A DNA stretch of 64,000 nucleotides, taken from NCBI GenBank assembly GCA_946623825.1, contig CAMORN010000001.1:16202-80201 (forward strand), in the 5' to 3' direction. The notes below the pieces were generated by a model that saw only the letters and a program-made list of their open reading frames with translations, made no database searches and had not been told where the DNA came from. Source of the DNA: an uncultured Alphaproteobacteria bacterium (GTDB lineage Bacteria > Pseudomonadota > Alphaproteobacteria > Rs-D84). This document shows positions 10,060 to 15,641 of this stretch, piece by piece. Made by a program: the position numbers and the translations under genes. Numbering within the stretch: position 1 is the first letter of the stretch; every line of letters starts with the position of its first letter.

Positions 10060-11277
10060 ATGCAGCGTTTTTCTGTTATATTTATATTATCATTAATATC
10101 ATTGAATGCCACAGCCAGTGCGTATTTGCCGGTTGTTGATGTTGCAAATGGAACCGTTTCAGCAAGGGCTGCTTTCGGTGAAGAAATAGCACCTGTAAAA
10201 AAGGTTGCTGTCGAAAAAAATGTAAAAACAACAGAAAAAAAAGTTGTTGCACGCAGTGCTAAAAAAACAAATACAGCAAAAAATTCATACGCATCAAATG
10301 ATGTTTTAAGACCTCAACGTCCAACATCTAATTTGTGGGCAAATAATGATGCGCCTTTGCGTATGCCACGTATGGATGAAATTGCTCTTATTCGTTCTGA
10401 TTCTGTTTTGCCAGAAGAAAGTATTGATTCAACAATTGCATCTAATTCAGAAAAGGTTGTTGAAAGAACTACACAACATGAAATTGATTCTTTGCGTCAG
10501 GAAATTGCGCGTTTGGAACAAAAGCAAAAAGAAACAGAAGAAAGATTGGTTCGTGCGCGTCCTGTTATGGTCAGAACACCAATCGACGGCGAAAGCAATG
10601 TTAAACCGGTTGCAAAAAATAACGATGTAAATGTTAAACGCGAAATTGTTCCTTATTCAGCAGATAAAAACACTATTGCACGCAGTGCTGTTGCAGAACC
10701 TAAATTTGCATCGGTCAGTGATATGTCAAAAATGTCGCCAAATGAATTGAAAAAGGCGTTTAAGAAAACATATTTGTCTGAAAACAAACATTTATCAACA
10801 TATCAAATAGATGATCGTTATGATGTGGCAAGTGATATGTCCGCGGACATAGAAGGTTTTTCTGCACAACGCGATTTGTCTGAAACAAATGACGGTGTTC
10901 GTCCATTGGAAATTAAAATATCTTTCTTGAACGGTGATTCTGGATTATCACGCGAAAATTATAATTTATTAAGTGAAACTGCATCTATCGTTGTAAATAA
11001 TCCAAAACGCGCGATTCAAGTTGCAATTCCAGAATCTGCGACATATGACAAAGATGCGCGTAAATTGGCTGCACGTCGTTTGGCAATTGTAGAACAGGTT
11101 TTACGTGATACTGGTGTTGCAGAACAACGCATTGTTCCGGTATTATCACAACGCGATGATGATGTTTTTGTGTTGCGTGTGATTTCTGGTGATTTGTTTG
11201 AAACTTTGACCCAACAAAAACGCAATATGTTTGGCGACAGTATTTCAAATAAAACATACAAAAGTATGTCGTGGTAA
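10060..11277 (+). CDS. Exported hypothetical protein with coiled coil and degenerate OmpA-like C-terminal domain
   Basis: Signal peptide; coiled coil 'EIDSLRQEIARLEQKQKETEERL'; C-terminal 'ISFLNGDSGLS...LAARRLAIVEQVLRDTGVAEQRI' resembles the OmpA_C fold. Confidence 0.7.
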   Translation: MQRFSVIFILSLISLNATASAYLPVVDVANGTVSARAAFGEEIAPVKKVAVEKNVKTTEKKVVARSAKKTNTAKNSYASNDVLRPQRPTSNLWANNDAPLRMPRMDEIALIRSDSVLPEESIDSTIASNSEKVVERTTQHEIDSLRQEIARLEQKQKETEERLVRARPVMVRTPIDGESNVKPVAKNNDVNVKREIVPYSADKNTIARSAVAEPKFASVSDMSKMSPNELKKAFKKTYLSENKHLSTYQIDDRYDVASDMSADIEGFSAQRDLSETNDGVRPLEIKISFLNGDSGLSRENYNLLSETASIVVNNPKRAIQVAIPESATYDKDARKLAARRLAIVEQVLRDTGVAEQRIVPVLSQRDDDVFVLRVISGDLFETLTQQKRNMFGDSISNKTYKSMSW

Positions 11278-11993
11278 AATTTTTCAATAATCTTTTTAAT
11301 TTTATATATCCCGCGGTTTGTCCCGTATGCAACGATTTTGTTGAAAGACATGGTATGTTGTGTGCGAAATGTTGGAATGATTTTAATTGGATATCAAATC
11401 CAAAATGTTTTAAATGTGGTTATCCTTTTCCTGCTGATTTAGATTTGGGTCCGCGACCATTGTGTCCGCATTGTGCAACCGGTGAATGTGAATTAGATTT
11501 TATACGCAGTGCATGCGTGTATGATGATGTTTCTAAAAATATAATGTTGCCGTTCAAACACGCGTCAAACCTGAAATACGGGCGTTTGATGTCGCATGCT
11601 ATGATAAATTGTTTGAAAGACATGGATATAAAATTTGATATTGTGATGCCGGTACCACTTGCGTATAAAAGATTGTTTAAACGCGGATATAATCAGGCGA
11701 CATTATTAGCGCGTCCAATTGCTAAATATTGTAATGCGATTTTAGATGTTGATTCTGTGTCCAGAAAATACAGACAAGATATGGGACACAAAACCACAAA
11801 AGAAAGGAAAATCAACGTAAAGGGTGTTTTTGTTGTGAAAAACAAAGATGCTGTAAAGGATAAGAATATTTTATTGGTTGATGATGTTATGACATCGGGT
11901 GCAACATTTTATGAATTGAATCATGTACTAAGAAAGGCTGGTGCGAAATCTGTATGTGCAGTTTCTTTTTGTCGTGTTGTTCATGCAATTTAA
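11271..11993 (+). CDS. comF: ComF family protein (double zinc ribbon plus PRTase domain)
   Basis: CPVC/CAKC/CFKC/CPHC zinc ribbon; RGYNQA; ILLVDDVMTSGAT PRPP-binding motif. Confidence 0.93.
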   Translation: MVKFFNNLFNFIYPAVCPVCNDFVERHGMLCAKCWNDFNWISNPKCFKCGYPFPADLDLGPRPLCPHCATGECELDFIRSACVYDDVSKNIMLPFKHASNLKYGRLMSHAMINCLKDMDIKFDIVMPVPLAYKRLFKRGYNQATLLARPIAKYCNAILDVDSVSRKYRQDMGHKTTKERKINVKGVFVVKNKDAVKDKNILLVDDVMTSGATFYELNHVLRKAGAKSVCAVSFCRVVHAI

Positions 11994-12352
11994 TGTTTGA
12001 TAGCGCACAATTTTGTTTGTAAAAAATTTGCTATTTCTAATTCTTTGTGATTCATGGTTTGTGCTGTTTCTTGCAAATCTATTTTTTCTTTGCAGGCGTT
12101 TATTATATCCAACATATCTTTTTGCTCGTTTGTCAAAGGTCTGGAATTGGTTTCGTCCCATTTTACAGCCAGAATAATTTTGCCGTCTATTGCGATGTTG
12201 TATTGGTTCGTTGCCCAACCATTATGGACAGACAAAATTTCATGCCCATTTTTATCAAAAATAACGTATTGATTTCCAGAATTTGTTGCGCGATTAGAAA
12301 TCATATTGTTATGAATTGTTTCTTTGACCAATATTTTAAGAATTTTATTCAT
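11990..12352 (-). CDS. Hypothetical protein
   Basis: 120-aa ORF with GAGG RBS; converges on comF with a 4-bp overlap. Confidence 0.6.
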   Translation of the reverse strand: MNKILKILVKETIHNNMISNRATNSGNQYVIFDKNGHEILSVHNGWATNQYNIAIDGKIILAVKWDETNSRPLTNEQKDMLDIINACKEKIDLQETAQTMNHKELEIANFLQTKLCAIKH

Positions 12353-12488
12353 TTCTGACCTCTGGTTTACGTGTTAAATAATAACTGTTTTAAAGGGTGT
12401 TTTCACTAGGAACCTTTTTCGTTTATTTATTTGATTTTGTATTTTTATTGTGTAAAATTTGTCTTGGAATAAATTATTGGGGTAAAAA

Positions 12489-14891
12489 ATGAATATAGAT
12501 TTGGGTAAAAATATAGATACTCGTGAAATGGAAACCAAAATTCAAGAATTTTGGGATAATAATGATTTTTGGGCAAATGATGTAAAAAGTGATAAAAAAT
12601 CATTTTGTATTATGATGCCACCACCAAACGTGACTGGTAATTTACACATGGGTCATGCGTTGGACAATGTTTTGACAGATATTATTTGCCGTTATAAACG
12701 TATGGACGGTTTTGATGTGTTGTGGCAACCGGGGACAGACCATGCGTCTATTGCAACACAATTATTGGTTGAACGCGATTTGTCAAAACGTGGTATAAAC
12801 CCAAATACTATGACTTTGGATGAAAAATTAAACGCTGCTTGGACATGGAAGGCGGACAAGGGCGGACAAATAATGAATCAATTGCATATTCTTGGCGTAA
12901 CACCAGTTTGGAAACGCGAAAGATTCACCATGGACGAAGGTTTATCCCGTGCGGTTACAAAATTGTTTGTTAAAATGTATAACGAAGGTTTAATCTATCG
13001 TGAAAAACGTCTGGTAAATTGGTGTCCAAAACAACAAACATCTGTTTCAGATTTGGAAATTGATACACGTGAAGAACATGGTAAATTTTATTATTTCAAT
13101 TATCCGCTTGTCGACGGTGGTTTTATTGAAATTGCAACTACACGTCCTGAAACTTTGTTTGGTGATAAAGCAATTGCTGTTCATCCGGAAAATGAAAAAT
13201 TGAAACATTTGATTGGAAAGCATGCAATTATTCCATTGACCGATATTGAAATCCCGATTGTGGCGGACGAACACGCTGACCCTGAAAAGGGAACTGGTGC
13301 GGTTAAAATTACACCTGCACATGATTTTGATGACTATGAAGTTGGACTTCGTCATAATCTTGAACCACTTTGCATTTTAACAAAAGATGCAAAATTAAAT
13401 GATGAATCTGTTGTTCCTGAAAAATATCGTGGTATGGACAGGTATGTTGCGCGTAAGGCAATTATTGAAGATTTAGAAGCCGCGGGCTTAATGGTTAAAA
13501 TTGAAGACAAAATTATTCCAACACCATATTCTGAACGTGGCGGTGTTCCGGTTGAACCAATGTTGACAACACAATGGTTTGTTGATGCTGAAAAACTTGC
13601 AAAACCTGCGATTAAAGCTGTAGAAGAAGGTAAAATTAAATTCTTGCCAGAACATAGATATAATTTATTTATGGCATGGATGCGTGAAATTCGTCCATGG
13701 ACTATTTCTCGTCAATTATGGTGGGGACATCATATACCTGCATGGTATGATGAAGAAGGTAATGTTTATGTAGCAGAAACAGAAGCTGACGCAATTAAGC
13801 AATCTGGTGGTAAAACATTAACACGCGATAAAGATGTTTTGGACACTTGGTTTTCATCTGGATTGTGGCCATTTTCAACATTGGGTTGGCCAGATGACAC
13901 ACTTGAATTGAAAAAATATTATCCAACAGATTTATTATACACTGGTGCAGATATTATATTCTTCTGGGTTGCGCGTATGATAATGATGGGTATGTATGTA
14001 ATGGGTGATGTTCCATTCCGTACTGTGAATTTCCATGGACTTGTTCGTGATTCCAAGGGGCAAAAAATGTCCAAGACAAAAGGAAATGGTACAGACCCAT
14101 TGGATTCTGTAAACAAATTCGGTGCGGACGCGTTGCGTTATTGGATTGCAACTGCGCCAATTGGAACTGATTTAAGATACAGTGATGACGAGGTTAAACG
14201 TGGTTCAAGATTATTAACAAAATTGTGGAATGCATCAAAATATGTTTTGATGAATTTGAATGATTTTGATCCAAAATCTGCACAACAAATTCCTGTGTCT
14301 GACAGATTTATCGAAGACAGATGGGTATTGTCTGAATTGAATAAAGCAATTGCAGAAACAAGACGCAATCTGGATAAATACGATAATTATAACGGACGCA
14401 GTGCGATTGATACTTTCTTCTGGGATATATTCTGCGATCAATATCTTGAATTTATCAAAGACAGATTCTGGTCACCTGAAAAATACAGTGCGGAATCTAA
14501 ATTGTCTGCCCAATGGACACTTTACACAGTGTTGCGTGCGATAATTGGTTTATATGCACCGTTTATTCCATTTATCACAGAAGAATTATGGCAAAAAATC
14601 TACAAAGATTTTGAAGGTGGCGATACATTGCATTTGACACAATATCCAACTGTGAAAGAAGAATATAATACAGATGTTTCCCAAATGAACATTGCATTGG
14701 AAATATTGAAAAATGTTCGTGGTCTTCGTACAGACAGAAAGGTTGGTAATGGTGCAAAATTGGAAACTTTGACAATTCCATCTGATACACCTGAAATATT
14801 GCATGGGTTGATTAAATCTGCGGCACGTGCAAATGAAATTGTTTTGGAAAACAGTGTAGATTTTGTTGTTCTGCAAAATAACGAACAATAA
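12489..14891 (+). CDS. valS: Valyl-tRNA synthetase (short, apparently chimeric)
   Basis: PPPNVTGNLHMGH (HIGH), TTRPET editing domain, WTISRQLWWGH and KMSKT; 800 aa with no C-terminal coiled coil. Confidence 0.97.
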   Translation: MNIDLGKNIDTREMETKIQEFWDNNDFWANDVKSDKKSFCIMMPPPNVTGNLHMGHALDNVLTDIICRYKRMDGFDVLWQPGTDHASIATQLLVERDLSKRGINPNTMTLDEKLNAAWTWKADKGGQIMNQLHILGVTPVWKRERFTMDEGLSRAVTKLFVKMYNEGLIYREKRLVNWCPKQQTSVSDLEIDTREEHGKFYYFNYPLVDGGFIEIATTRPETLFGDKAIAVHPENEKLKHLIGKHAIIPLTDIEIPIVADEHADPEKGTGAVKITPAHDFDDYEVGLRHNLEPLCILTKDAKLNDESVVPEKYRGMDRYVARKAIIEDLEAAGLMVKIEDKIIPTPYSERGGVPVEPMLTTQWFVDAEKLAKPAIKAVEEGKIKFLPEHRYNLFMAWMREIRPWTISRQLWWGHHIPAWYDEEGNVYVAETEADAIKQSGGKTLTRDKDVLDTWFSSGLWPFSTLGWPDDTLELKKYYPTDLLYTGADIIFFWVARMIMMGMYVMGDVPFRTVNFHGLVRDSKGQKMSKTKGNGTDPLDSVNKFGADALRYWIATAPIGTDLRYSDDEVKRGSRLLTKLWNASKYVLMNLNDFDPKSAQQIPVSDRFIEDRWVLSELNKAIAETRRNLDKYDNYNGRSAIDTFFWDIFCDQYLEFIKDRFWSPEKYSAESKLSAQWTLYTVLRAIIGLYAPFIPFITEELWQKIYKDFEGGDTLHLTQYPTVKEEYNTDVSQMNIALEILKNVRGLRTDRKVGNGAKLETLTIPSDTPEILHGLIKSAARANEIVLENSVDFVVLQNNEQ

Positions 14892-14912
14892 ATCATACAA
14901 CAGGAGGGCGCA

Positions 14913-15641
14913 ATGGTCGAAAAAATGATTGAAACACATGTATTAAAATCATATCAATGTGATAGATATGGTTTTATGCGCCCAATCATGTTGATGAATG
15001 AATTGCAGGGGTTGGCTGGAAAGCATGCTGATATTTTGGGTGCGGGTCGTGAAAATTGTTTTGCACGCGGTATTGCATGGGTTGTAACCCACATGTTCAT
15101 AGACATAATAGATATGCCAACTGCGAAAGAAAAATTGGTTTATTCAACATGGCCATCTGTATCTGGGGCGGTTCGCAGTGAACGTGATTTTGAAATCAGA
15201 GATGAAGCGGGCAATCTGAAAATTCGTGCAATTTCCCAATGGGTTTTAATAGATTTACAAACGCGTCGTCCGGTTCGTATTACTGATTATTTCCCAGAAT
15301 GGACGGGATTACCAGAACGCATTTGGGACAGAAATTTTGACAAGGCTTCTGATTTTATTCCAACAAAATCCCATGTTATGGCGTGCCGTTTCGATGATAT
15401 TGATGTGAACCAACATATAAACAATGCTGTGTACAGTGTGTGGGCAACCGAATCGGTTGGTTTTGAATACAGAAATAATCATAAATTGCGCGGTATGGAT
15501 ATTTATTTTGAACACGAAATAAATCCAAACACACCAACGGTCAGAATAGAAGTTGCGCTGGACGGTAACATAACCAGACATAAAATAATGACTGATGAAA
15601 CAGAACACGCAAATATTGTGTGTTATTGGAACGAAAGATAA
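14913..15641 (+). CDS. Acyl-ACP thioesterase (FatA/B-like double hot-dog)
   Basis: 'SYQCDRYG', 'AWVVTHMFIDI' and 'RFDDIDVNQHINNAVY' thioesterase motifs. Confidence 0.88.
   Translation: MVEKMIETHVLKSYQCDRYGFMRPIMLMNELQGLAGKHADILGAGRENCFARGIAWVVTHMFIDIIDMPTAKEKLVYSTWPSVSGAVRSERDFEIRDEAGNLKIRAISQWVLIDLQTRRPVRITDYFPEWTGLPERIWDRNFDKASDFIPTKSHVMACRFDDIDVNQHINNAVYSVWATESVGFEYRNNHKLRGMDIYFEHEINPNTPTVRIEVALDGNITRHKIMTDETEHANIVCYWNER

What the first reader, a model, noticed from the sequence alone, without database searches (positions are those of the whole stretch)
12489..14891. ValRS appears to be a chimera of the two ValRS types
Seen: the catalytic part has common bacterial-type motifs (PGTDHASIATQ, RERFTMDEGLS, WTISRQLWWGH, DTWFSSGLWPFSTLGWP, FFWVARMIMMG). 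After KMSK the sequence reads GADALRYW..A..GTDLRYS..EVKRG.RLLTKLWNASKYV, FFWDIFCDQYLEFIK and SAQWTLYTVL, and it ends at 800 aa with no tRNA-binding coiled coil. Established (from recall): RYW, TKLWNA, FFW..FCD.YLE and the missing coiled coil typify the archaeal/Rickettsia-type ValRS (PRK13208). Inference: intragenic recombination fused a bacterial catalytic core to the other type's anticodon-binding domain.
Basis: partly seen in the sequence, partly recalled or inferred. Interest (0 to 1): 0.55.

Follow-up and report, generated by a model that had tools for sequence, protein, structure and literature searches.

The report
Hybrid valine-tRNA synthetase of two types
The only valine-tRNA charging enzyme of this small gut alphaproteobacterium is a natural hybrid, with its catalytic and proofreading part from the ordinary bacterial enzyme and its tRNA-anticodon-binding tail from the archaeal/Rickettsia-like enzyme; many related species carry the same hybrid, so two anciently diverged versions of an essential enzyme can be spliced and still work.

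Summary

- **N part (aa 1 to about 539):** ordinary alphaproteobacterial PRK05729-type core, 55-60% identical to long alphaproteobacterial ValRS and 24-30% to PRK13208-type.
- **C part (aa about 551-800):** the pattern reverses. It is 41-43% identical to PRK13208-type ValRS found in the same bacterial order and 19-26% to that order's bacterial-type ValRS.
- **Trees:** separate ML trees place the two parts on opposite sides of the bacterial | PRK13208 split (100/100 and 100/99). Forcing the C-part grouping onto the N part costs 638 lnL (p-AU 4e-6). Holding the C part with the bacterial type is rejected (p-AU 0.006).
- **Breakpoint:** site likelihoods put it at aa 539-550, just after KMSK, in the conserved GADALR stretch.
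- **Function:** the hybrid is under purifying selection (dN/dS 0.04-0.09), folds confidently (pLDDT 91.6) and has no coiled coil.
- **Distribution:** it is shared by three families of the order. That order also holds the long bacterial form and two PRK13208 lineages, and the type switches even within a genus.

No published description was found in the library searched. I class it as a new variant of a known enzyme; interest is moderate to high.

The parts
12489..14891 (+). valS, 800-aa hybrid valine--tRNA ligase (stop codon included)
   Evidence: ORF. NCBIfam PRK05729 1010 bits against PRK13208 605 bits. Only ValRS found in the genome.
12489..14105 (+). aa 1-539: bacterial (alphaproteobacterial) PRK05729-type part, comprising the Rossmann catalytic domain, the CP1 editing domain and the KMSKS loop
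   Evidence: 52-60% identity to bacterial-type ValRS and 24-30% to PRK13208-type. Sits in the bacterial clade at 100/100. At 55 type-specific alignment columns, 48 carry the bacterial state and 1 the PRK13208 state.
12645..12656 (+). HIGH signature (HMGH, aa 53-56)
   Evidence: Translation. H53 and H56 are invariant in alignment A2.
14064..14078 (+). KMSKT signature (aa 526-530), bacterial-type loop without the insertion seen in the related PRK13208 sublineage
   Evidence: Alignment. K526, S528 and K529 are invariant.
14106..14138 (+). Recombination junction, aa 540-550 (SVNKFGADALR): the conserved stretch in which the affinity switches
   Evidence: Cumulative site log-likelihood peaks at aa 550 with a plateau from aa 539. 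The sliding-window identity crossover lies at 540-560. D547 and R550 are invariant in both types.
14139..14888 (+). aa 551-800: PRK13208-type (archaeal/Rickettsia-like) part, comprising the helices after KMSKS, the helix-bundle anticodon-binding domain (about 566-709) and a small alpha/beta C-terminal domain (about 733-794); no coiled coil
   Evidence: 41-43% identity to same-order PRK13208 ValRS and 19-26% to same-order bacterial ValRS. Nested in the PRK13208 clade. The AU test rejects union with the bacterial type, p 0.006. Profile scores; model.
11271..11993 (+). Upstream neighbour, ComF-like phosphoribosyltransferase (marks the conserved valS slot in the family)
   Evidence: Pfam DZR_2 and Pribosyltran. 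Synteny.
14913..15641 (+). Downstream neighbour, acyl-ACP thioesterase (marks the conserved valS slot in the family)
   Evidence: Pfam Acyl-ACP_TE. Synteny.

Best explanation
The gene encodes the cell's working, and only found, valyl-tRNA synthetase. It is an inter-type recombinant.

- **Codons 1 to about 545** descend from an alphaproteobacterial, bacterial-type valS. They carry the Rossmann fold with HMGH and KMSKT and the CP1 editing domain.
- **Codons about 550 to 800** descend from a PRK13208-type valS, the 'archaeal/Rickettsia-like' type. The source is a sublineage that still occurs as a full-length gene in sister families of the same order.

The crossover lies in the short stretch conserved in both types just 3' of KMSKS (DP..(K)FGADALR). 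This is the boundary between the catalytic body and the tRNA anticodon-arm-binding region, so each parent contributed whole folding units.

Inferred mechanism: valine activation, transfer and editing are done by the bacterial core. Anticodon and anticodon-stem recognition of tRNA-Val is done by the PRK13208-type helix bundle and small C-terminal domain, without the bacterial coiled coil that reaches the tRNA elbow, exactly as in full PRK13208 enzymes.

The hybrid arose before the divergence of the lineages that now carry it (three families of the order) and has been kept by purifying selection.

Shown: mosaic ancestry, breakpoint, sole copy found, selection, a confident fold and the distribution. 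Inferred: recombination between two co-resident genes, the division of labour in tRNA binding, and enzymatic activity.
For: **Identity pattern reverses along the protein**.
- N part: 52-55% to same-order bacterial forms and 24-28% to same-order PRK13208 forms.
- C part: 19-26% and 41-43% respectively.
- For the hybrid of genome G029 against the PRK13208 enzyme of G036 (same genus): N part 30%, C part 52%, with 84% in one window.

**Profile halves** behave as described for the split-score test.

**Trees.**
- N part (62 x 548 columns): PRK13208 | bacterial+hybrids split at 100/100. The hybrids form one clade (99/95) inside a 99/92 clade with 17 alphaproteobacterial ValRS.
- C part (62 x 263 columns): the bacterial clade is 100/99 and excludes the hybrids. 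All 8 hybrids lie in a 97/91 PRK13208 subclade with L047, L048 and L049 (same order), P0132, L064 and L099.

**Topology tests.** C part held with the bacterial type: dlnL 37, p-AU 0.006. N part forced into the C-part subclade: dlnL 638, p-AU 4e-6.

**Breakpoint.** Site log-likelihoods sum to +727 for the bacterial placement up to aa 550 and -57 after it.

**Shared indels**. The hybrids lack the KMSKS-loop insertion of the related PRK13208 sublineage. They share its 1-aa gap after RYW and its 4-aa SAQWTL segment.

**BLAST ranks** separate the two parts completely.

**Not an assembly artefact.** More than 120 clusters at 83-92% identity come from independent ENA, JGI, NCBI and Logan assemblies, on contigs up to 357 kb. 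Most of the 233 sampled species of the genus gave a full-length match of at least about 80% identity to the hybrid.

**Functional.**
- It is the only ValRS found in G000.
- In the 99%-complete G029, a PRK13208-profile search found the hybrid and, below it, only a much weaker match (272 bits, profile positions 254-790), which I read as IleRS.
- dN/dS is 0.04-0.07 for the N part and 0.07-0.09 for the C part.
- The AlphaFold model has pLDDT 91.6 and pTM 0.86, and superposes on T. thermophilus ValRS 1GAX at TM 0.91.
Against: - No biochemical data; activity and tRNA recognition are inferred.
- G000 is only 76% complete.
- The C part is short (263 usable columns) and fast-evolving. The bootstrap had not fully settled, several rows have deviant composition, and the AU p of 0.006 is clear but not extreme.
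- Only 4 type-specific columns exist in the C part, so the simple signature count is uninformative there.
- The history is not a clean single event. The G029 hybrid's C part groups with full PRK13208 genes L047+L048 (99/99) rather than with the other seven hybrids, and monophyly of the hybrids' C parts is borderline (p-AU 0.049).
- The direction, meaning which gene was resident, is unresolved.
- The parental bacterial-type gene of exactly this lineage was not found as a full-length gene.
Confidence: 0.92

Rival explanations
1. It is an ordinary bacterial-type ValRS that lost its C-terminal coiled coil during genome reduction. Its anticodon-binding region then diverged quickly and only looks PRK13208-like by chance or convergence.
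For: The genome is small (0.93 Mb). The whole protein passes the PRK05729 cut-off. The C parts of bacterial ValRS in this order are very divergent from each other, at 25-29% identity. K(L/I)WNA and FCD.Y(L/I)E occur in both types.
Against: - The C part is 41-55% identical to PRK13208-type genes of the same order and only 19-26% to bacterial ones.
- It shares their indels.
- It is nested in a supported PRK13208 subclade.
- Union with the bacterial type is rejected, p-AU 0.006.
- The first bacterial BLAST hit ranks 90th.
- Rate acceleration cannot make the C part more similar to the other type than the N part is.
Confidence: 0.03
2. It is a metagenome-assembly or binning chimera: two valS genes from different organisms were joined in silico at a conserved motif.
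For: The genome is a 16-contig draft. The junction lies in a motif conserved in both types. Both gene types occur in related gut bacteria.
Against: - The same junction is found in hundreds of independently assembled genomes and metagenome contigs from four data sources, some on contigs over 300 kb.
- The hybrids' N-part and C-part trees agree with each other for seven of the eight hybrids.
- Both parts show the same synonymous divergence between species, with dS about 1.0 in each.
- Flanking synteny is conserved across the genus.
Confidence: 0.01
3. The hybrid is real but arose more than once, or was re-recombined. On this reading the KMSKS-GADALR boundary is a recurrent crossover site, and the G029-type hybrid and the window-type hybrid took their C parts separately from resident PRK13208 genes.
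For: - In the C-part tree the G029 hybrid groups with full PRK13208 genes L047+L048 (99/99), away from the other seven hybrids (99/97). In the N-part tree all eight form one clade with G029 basal.
- AU for a single C-part clade gives p 0.049.
- G029 and G036 belong to one genus, carry different forms and share the gene just downstream of valS.
- The G029 hybrid and L047 share the N-terminal KLPELDK.
Against: - The AU value is borderline.
- The junction is the same within about 10 residues in all hybrids, as expected from one event.
- The C part is short and fast-evolving.
- No upstream DNA similarity was found between G029 and G036.
Confidence: 0.3

Closest known systems
Bacterial-type valine--tRNA ligase (NCBIfam NF004349/PRK05729, TIGR00422; structural reference T. 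thermophilus ValRS, PDB 1GAX)
   Same: The catalytic Rossmann fold, the HIGH and KMSKS signatures and the CP1 editing domain. The N part is 55-60% identical to alphaproteobacterial members. The whole-protein score of 1010 bits is above the 704 cut-off. The model superposes on 1GAX at TM 0.91.
   Different: From about aa 550 onward the sequence is not of this type. The C-terminal coiled-coil domain is absent, since the profile match ends at position 743 of 860. The protein has 800 aa instead of about 860-900.
PRK13208-type ('archaeal/Rickettsia-type') valine--tRNA ligase (NCBIfam NF009687)
   Same: The anticodon-binding helix bundle and small C-terminal domain, the absence of a coiled coil, and a length of about 800 aa. 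The C part is 41-43% identical to members in the same order (L047, L048) and is nested in that clade.
   Different: The N-terminal 540 residues are only 24-30% identical. The whole-protein score of 605 bits is below the 738 cut-off. The KMSKS-loop insertion of the nearest PRK13208 sublineage is lacking.
Reported mosaic aminoacyl-tRNA synthetases, e.g. bacterial GluRS2, proposed as a chimera of catalytic and anticodon-binding domains with different histories (PMC3927822, title and abstract only)
   Same: The same kind of event is proposed: the catalytic domain and the anticodon-binding domain of one synthetase have different phylogenetic origins.
   Different: It is a different enzyme. Here the two parents are the two deep ValRS types, both parental types still occur in the same bacterial order, and the breakpoint is mapped to about 10 residues. 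I read only the title and abstract of that paper.

Membership tests
Class Ia aminoacyl-tRNA synthetase / ValRS in general | HIGH and KMSKS signatures, a CP1 editing domain with its threonine-rich and GTG..TPAHD motifs, and an Anticodon_1 domain | tested here: met
   HMGH at aa 53-56, KMSKT at 526-530, TTRPET at 217-222 and GTGAVKITPAHD at 268-279. Pfam tRNA-synt_1 at 2.5e-134 and Anticodon_1 at 1.9e-36. All ValRS profiles outscore IleRS and LeuRS.
Bacterial-type ValRS (NF004349 / PRK05729) | Whole-protein score above the curated cut-off (704 bits) | tested here: met
   1010 bits. The score is carried by aa 1-530, which alone give 821 bits.
Bacterial-type ValRS (NF004349 / PRK05729) | Anticodon-binding region of bacterial ancestry | tested here: not met
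   The C-part tree and AU test. Identity is 19-26%. PRK05729 scores lower than PRK13208 on the C half, unlike the bacterial controls.
Bacterial-type ValRS (NF004349 / PRK05729) | C-terminal coiled-coil tRNA-binding domain | tested here: not met
   The profile match ends at 743 of 860, whereas long forms of the same order reach 855-857 of 860. There is no Pfam hit beyond Anticodon_1. The model ends in an alpha/beta domain.
PRK13208-type ValRS (NF009687) | Whole-protein score above the curated cut-off (738 bits) | tested here: not met
   605 bits. True members in the same order score 824-1009 bits.
PRK13208-type ValRS (NF009687) | Catalytic core of PRK13208 ancestry (e.g. the DTPPP(Y/T) block before HIGH) | tested here: not met
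   The hybrid has MMPPPNVTG as bacterial ValRS do. In the N-part tree it is separated at 100/100. dlnL is 638 against that placement.
PRK13208-type ValRS (NF009687) | Anticodon-binding and C-terminal region of PRK13208 ancestry, without a coiled coil | tested here: met
Working housekeeping ValRS of the organism | Sole copy, purifying selection, enzymatic charging of tRNA-Val | tested here: inconclusive
   It is the sole copy found in G000 (76% complete). In G029 (99% complete) a PRK13208-profile search found no other ValRS-level match. dN/dS is 0.04-0.09. Enzymatic activity is not testable with these tools.

The most novel reading that the evidence does not exclude
ValRS in this order of reduced gut alphaproteobacteria behaves as a swappable two-module gene. 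Four forms coexist in the order: long bacterial, two separate PRK13208 lineages, and the hybrid. The form changes within genera and even within the same comF-valS-thioesterase slot, and the KMSKS/GADALR boundary has been used for recombination more than once. That would point to recurrent selection on ValRS type or module, for example by an unknown inhibitor or by tRNA-Val changes, rather than to one frozen accident.
Probability: 0.25. Interest if true: 0.75.

Novelty: new variant of a known kind. Interest (0 to 1): 0.6.

Why it matters
Whole-gene horizontal replacement of aminoacyl-tRNA synthetases is textbook knowledge, and ValRS of Rickettsia is the classic 'archaeal-type in a bacterium' case (my own knowledge of the literature, not checked here). 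A fixed, functional splice between the two deep ValRS types is a different matter.

- It shows that the catalytic/editing body and the tRNA anticodon-arm-binding body of a class Ia synthetase stayed interchangeable after a very long separate history.
- It gives a natural, selection-tested junction for building hybrid synthetases. The junction is the conserved stretch just after KMSKS.
- It warns that whole-protein profile naming (PRK05729 passes its cut-off) and single-gene ValRS trees will mis-describe these genes.
- Both parental types and the hybrid occur in one order, and in the same chromosomal slot in one family. That makes the lineage a tractable system for asking what drives synthetase replacement.

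Tried and rejected
- **Signature-column count.** It works for the N part (48 bacterial, 1 PRK13208 of 55 columns). Only 4 such columns exist in the C part, so it says nothing there.
- **AU test of 'hybrids + PRK13208 | bacterial' on the N part** gave p 0.12. On reflection this only asks whether the hybrids are nested in, or sister to, the sampled bacterial clade, so it is not a test of ancestry. I replaced it with the direct congruence test.
- **Naming the nearest C-part relatives.** Cluster members carried no organism names. Names came instead from genome contigs.
- **Remnants of the hybrid gene** in the empty comF-thioesterase slot of G041 and G082: none were detectable.
- **Upstream DNA homology** between G029 (hybrid) and G036 (PRK13208): none was found.
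- **Base composition** across the gene shows no sharp step, at 0.36-0.40 against 0.345-0.35 GC. This fits an old event but is not informative.
- **Literature searches** for a chimeric ValRS found none. The library lacks most subscription journals, so this is not proof of novelty.
- **Earlier scan notes** held nothing on this gene.
- **Unpublished genome G339** (locus L156) appeared in the table.
Full report
**1. What is there**

window:12489-14891(+) is an uninterrupted 800-codon ORF. It carries HMGH (aa 53-56), KMSKT (526-530), the CP1 editing motifs and a Pfam Anticodon_1 domain.

Every NCBIfam ValRS profile beats the IleRS and LeuRS profiles. The best is the bacterial-type PRK05729 (1010 bits, cut-off 704), while PRK13208 reaches 605 bits against a cut-off of 738.

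The assembly that holds the window (0.93 Mb, 16 contigs, 76% complete) has no other ValRS-level match; the remaining matches are much weaker (about 270 bits or less) and lie in separate long ORFs, which I read as IleRS, LeuRS and MetRS. Close homologues are annotated by their sources as valine--tRNA ligase of uncultured Alphaproteobacteria or 'Candidatus Enterous...'. This is a gut lineage named in PMC8035907 (search hit only).

**2. The two parts have opposite affinities**

| Part | PRK05729 bits | PRK13208 bits |
|---|---|---|
| aa 1-530 | 821 | 386 |
| aa 531-800 | 166 | 197 |

Controls from the same bacterial order show what the small C-half difference means:

| C half of | PRK13208 minus PRK05729, bits |
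|---|---|
| true PRK13208 enzymes | +43 and +24 |
| true bacterial enzymes | -73 to -104 |
| four hybrids | +24 to +35 |

Pairwise identities are clearer still:

| Window protein compared with | N part | C part |
|---|---|---|
| long bacterial-type ValRS of sister families f2/f3 | 52-55% | 19-26% |
| PRK13208-type ValRS of sister family f6 (L047, L048) | 25-28% | 41-43% |

The N part is 55-60% identical to ordinary 880-930-aa alphaproteobacterial ValRS.

In a BLAST of each part against 142 collected ValRS, all 38 bacterial-type sequences outrank all 104 PRK13208-type ones for the N part. For the C part the first bacterial-type sequence ranks 90th of 141.

**3. Trees and tests**

I used 62 sequences:
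- 8 hybrids;
- 19 bacterial-type (same order, other Alphaproteobacteria and two others);
- 35 PRK13208-type (same order, Rickettsiaceae, DPANN and methanogen archaea, Dependentiae, Clostridia, Chloroflexota and others; names).

The N-part ML tree (548 columns, LG+C20 PMSF) splits PRK13208 from bacterial+hybrids at 100/100. It puts the eight hybrids as one clade (99/95) inside a 99/92 clade with 17 alphaproteobacterial ValRS.

The C-part tree (263 columns) has a 100/99 bacterial clade without any hybrid. All eight hybrids lie inside a 97/91 PRK13208 subclade together with L047, L048 and L049 (same order), P0132, an Acidobacteriota MAG (L064) and a proteobacterial MAG (L099). The same non-hybrid sequences also form one subclade in the N-part tree (100/98). 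So the PRK13208 lineage itself is congruent, and it is the hybrids that move.

AU tests:
- Holding the hybrids' C part with the bacterial type is rejected (dlnL 37, p 0.006).
- Forcing the hybrids' N part into the C-part subclade costs 638 lnL (p 4e-6).
- A first N-part test (p 0.12) asked the wrong question. I discount it for the reason given under tried and rejected.

**4. Breakpoint**

Sliding-window identity crosses over between aa 540 and 560.

Site-wise log-likelihoods under the two placements accumulate +727 in favour of the bacterial placement up to aa 550 and -57 after it. There is a flat stretch from aa 539 to 550.

In the alignment the hybrids have the bacterial HGLVRD..G.K(M/F)SK..GN..DP loop, without the 9-10-residue insertion of the L047/L048/L049/P0132 sublineage. 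From GADALR(Y/H)W onward they follow that sublineage, including a one-residue gap after RYW and the SAQWTL segment that alphaproteobacterial bacterial-type enzymes lack.

D547 and R550 are invariant in both types, so the crossover sits in a shared conserved stretch.

In the AlphaFold model (pLDDT 91.6, pTM 0.86) this is the pair of helices right after the KMSKS loop. It precedes the helix bundle (566-709) and a small alpha/beta domain (733-794), and there is no coiled coil. The model superposes on T. thermophilus ValRS 1GAX at TM 0.91.

By my recollection of the 1GAX description, not checked here, this position corresponds to the start of the stem-contact fold. If so, the swap exchanged the whole tRNA anticodon-arm-binding body.

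**5. Real and functional**

The same architecture is found in many independent sources:
- more than 120 clusters (90% identity level) at 83-92% identity, from four independent data sources, on contigs up to 357 kb;
- most of the 233 sampled species of the genus, which gave a full-length match of at least about 80% identity to the hybrid;
- families f5 and f6 of the order at 57-67% identity, with the same junction.

The N-part and C-part topologies among seven of the eight hybrids agree.

dN/dS against five congeners is 0.04-0.07 (N part) and 0.07-0.09 (C part), with equal dS in both parts.

In G029 (99% complete) a PRK13208-profile search found the hybrid and, below it, only a much weaker match that I read as IleRS. 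An assembly artefact and a decaying gene are therefore excluded.

**6. Context in the order**

The order holds four ValRS forms:
- **Long bacterial type with coiled coil**, in f2 and f3.
- **A PRK13208 lineage in f6 and f4** (L047, L048, L049), which is the source type of the hybrid's C part.
- **A second PRK13208 lineage**, sister to the Rickettsiaceae genes in the N-part tree (96/98). It occurs in some genera of the window's own family and even in some species of its genus, verified in G041, G082, G099 and G168. By E-value class, 8 of 233 sampled congeners and 16 genomes of other genera in the family probably carry this form; only those four genomes were checked.
- **The hybrid.**

In the window's genus the hybrid always lies in the order comF-like gene, small ORF, valS, acyl-ACP thioesterase. 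G099 has its PRK13208 valS in that same slot. G041 and G082 have the slot empty, without remnants, and their PRK13208 valS elsewhere.

G029 (hybrid) and G036 (PRK13208) belong to one genus and share the gene just downstream of valS, but not the upstream side.

**7. What remains open**

The hybrid's C part in G029 groups with L047+L048 (99/99) and not with the other hybrids, and a single clade of hybrid C parts is borderline (p-AU 0.049). At least one further recombination or transfer is therefore needed, or the hybrid formed twice at the same boundary.

Which gene was resident, and where the exact bacterial-type parent is, could not be settled. No upstream DNA similarity was found between G029 and G036, although their proteins share the N-terminal KLPELDK.

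Enzymatic activity and the mode of tRNA binding are inferences.

**8. Comparison and novelty**

The protein works like a ValRS. It passes the PRK05729 cut-off, but it fails two defining features of that family (bacterial anticodon-binding region and coiled coil). It also fails the cut-off and the core of PRK13208. It is best described as a hybrid of the two.

Mosaic synthetases have been proposed before, for example GluRS2 (PMC3927822, abstract only). I found no report of a chimeric ValRS in four searches, though the library is incomplete.

Verdict: a real feature, a new variant of a known kind, of moderate to high interest to people working on synthetase evolution and engineering.

Noticed in passing
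G041:C4:116261-118768 (L056), G082:C2:6449-8968 (L057), G099:C1:7943-10414 (L058), G168:C8:55905-58367 (L059): Some species of the window's own genus, and other genera of its family, carry a full PRK13208-type ValRS (929-1009 bits) instead of the hybrid. This lineage is sister to the Rickettsiaceae ValRS in the N-part tree (96/98). It is not the source of the hybrid's C part, to which it is only 23-26% identical.
   Followed up: partly
window 11271-15641; L058 (G099); L178 (G041:C4:30600-33600); L179 (G082:C3:24200-26300): The slot from the comF-like gene to the acyl-ACP thioesterase holds the hybrid valS throughout the genus. It holds a PRK13208 valS in G099. It is empty in G041 and G082 (1.5 kb and 0.5 kb, no valS remnant), whose valS lies elsewhere.
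   Followed up: yes
L042 / L175 (G029) versus L047 / L176 (G036), same genus: One genus holds both the hybrid and the full PRK13208 form. The G029 hybrid's C part groups with L047+L048 rather than with the other hybrids (99/99). The two proteins share the N-terminal KLPELDK and the gene just downstream, but no upstream DNA similarity.
   Followed up: partly
L047, L048, L049, P0132, at the KMSKS loop (alignment): This PRK13208 sublineage has a 9-10-residue insertion inside the KMSKS loop, reading KISKR(H/D)(M/I/L).K.TDK.(D/T)GYN. It is absent from the other PRK13208 enzymes shown in that alignment and from the hybrids.
   Followed up: no
L064-L143: PRK13208-type ValRS is widespread in bacteria well beyond Rickettsia: Dependentiae, Clostridia/Lachnospiraceae, Bacilli, Chloroflexota, CPR groups, Cyanobacteriota MAGs, Micavibrio, Acidobacteriota. 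'Archaeal/Rickettsia-type' is therefore a narrow label.
   Followed up: no
L145 (G313:C133): An alphaproteobacterial bacterial-type ValRS has an open frame of only 788 aa. Its C part falls in the bacterial clade. It is probably cut by the contig end rather than being another short form.
   Followed up: no
window 12047-12358 (+): A 103-aa ORF lies between the comF-like gene and valS. It has no Pfam match and is conserved only among the closest congeners (89% down to 38-46% identity).
   Followed up: no
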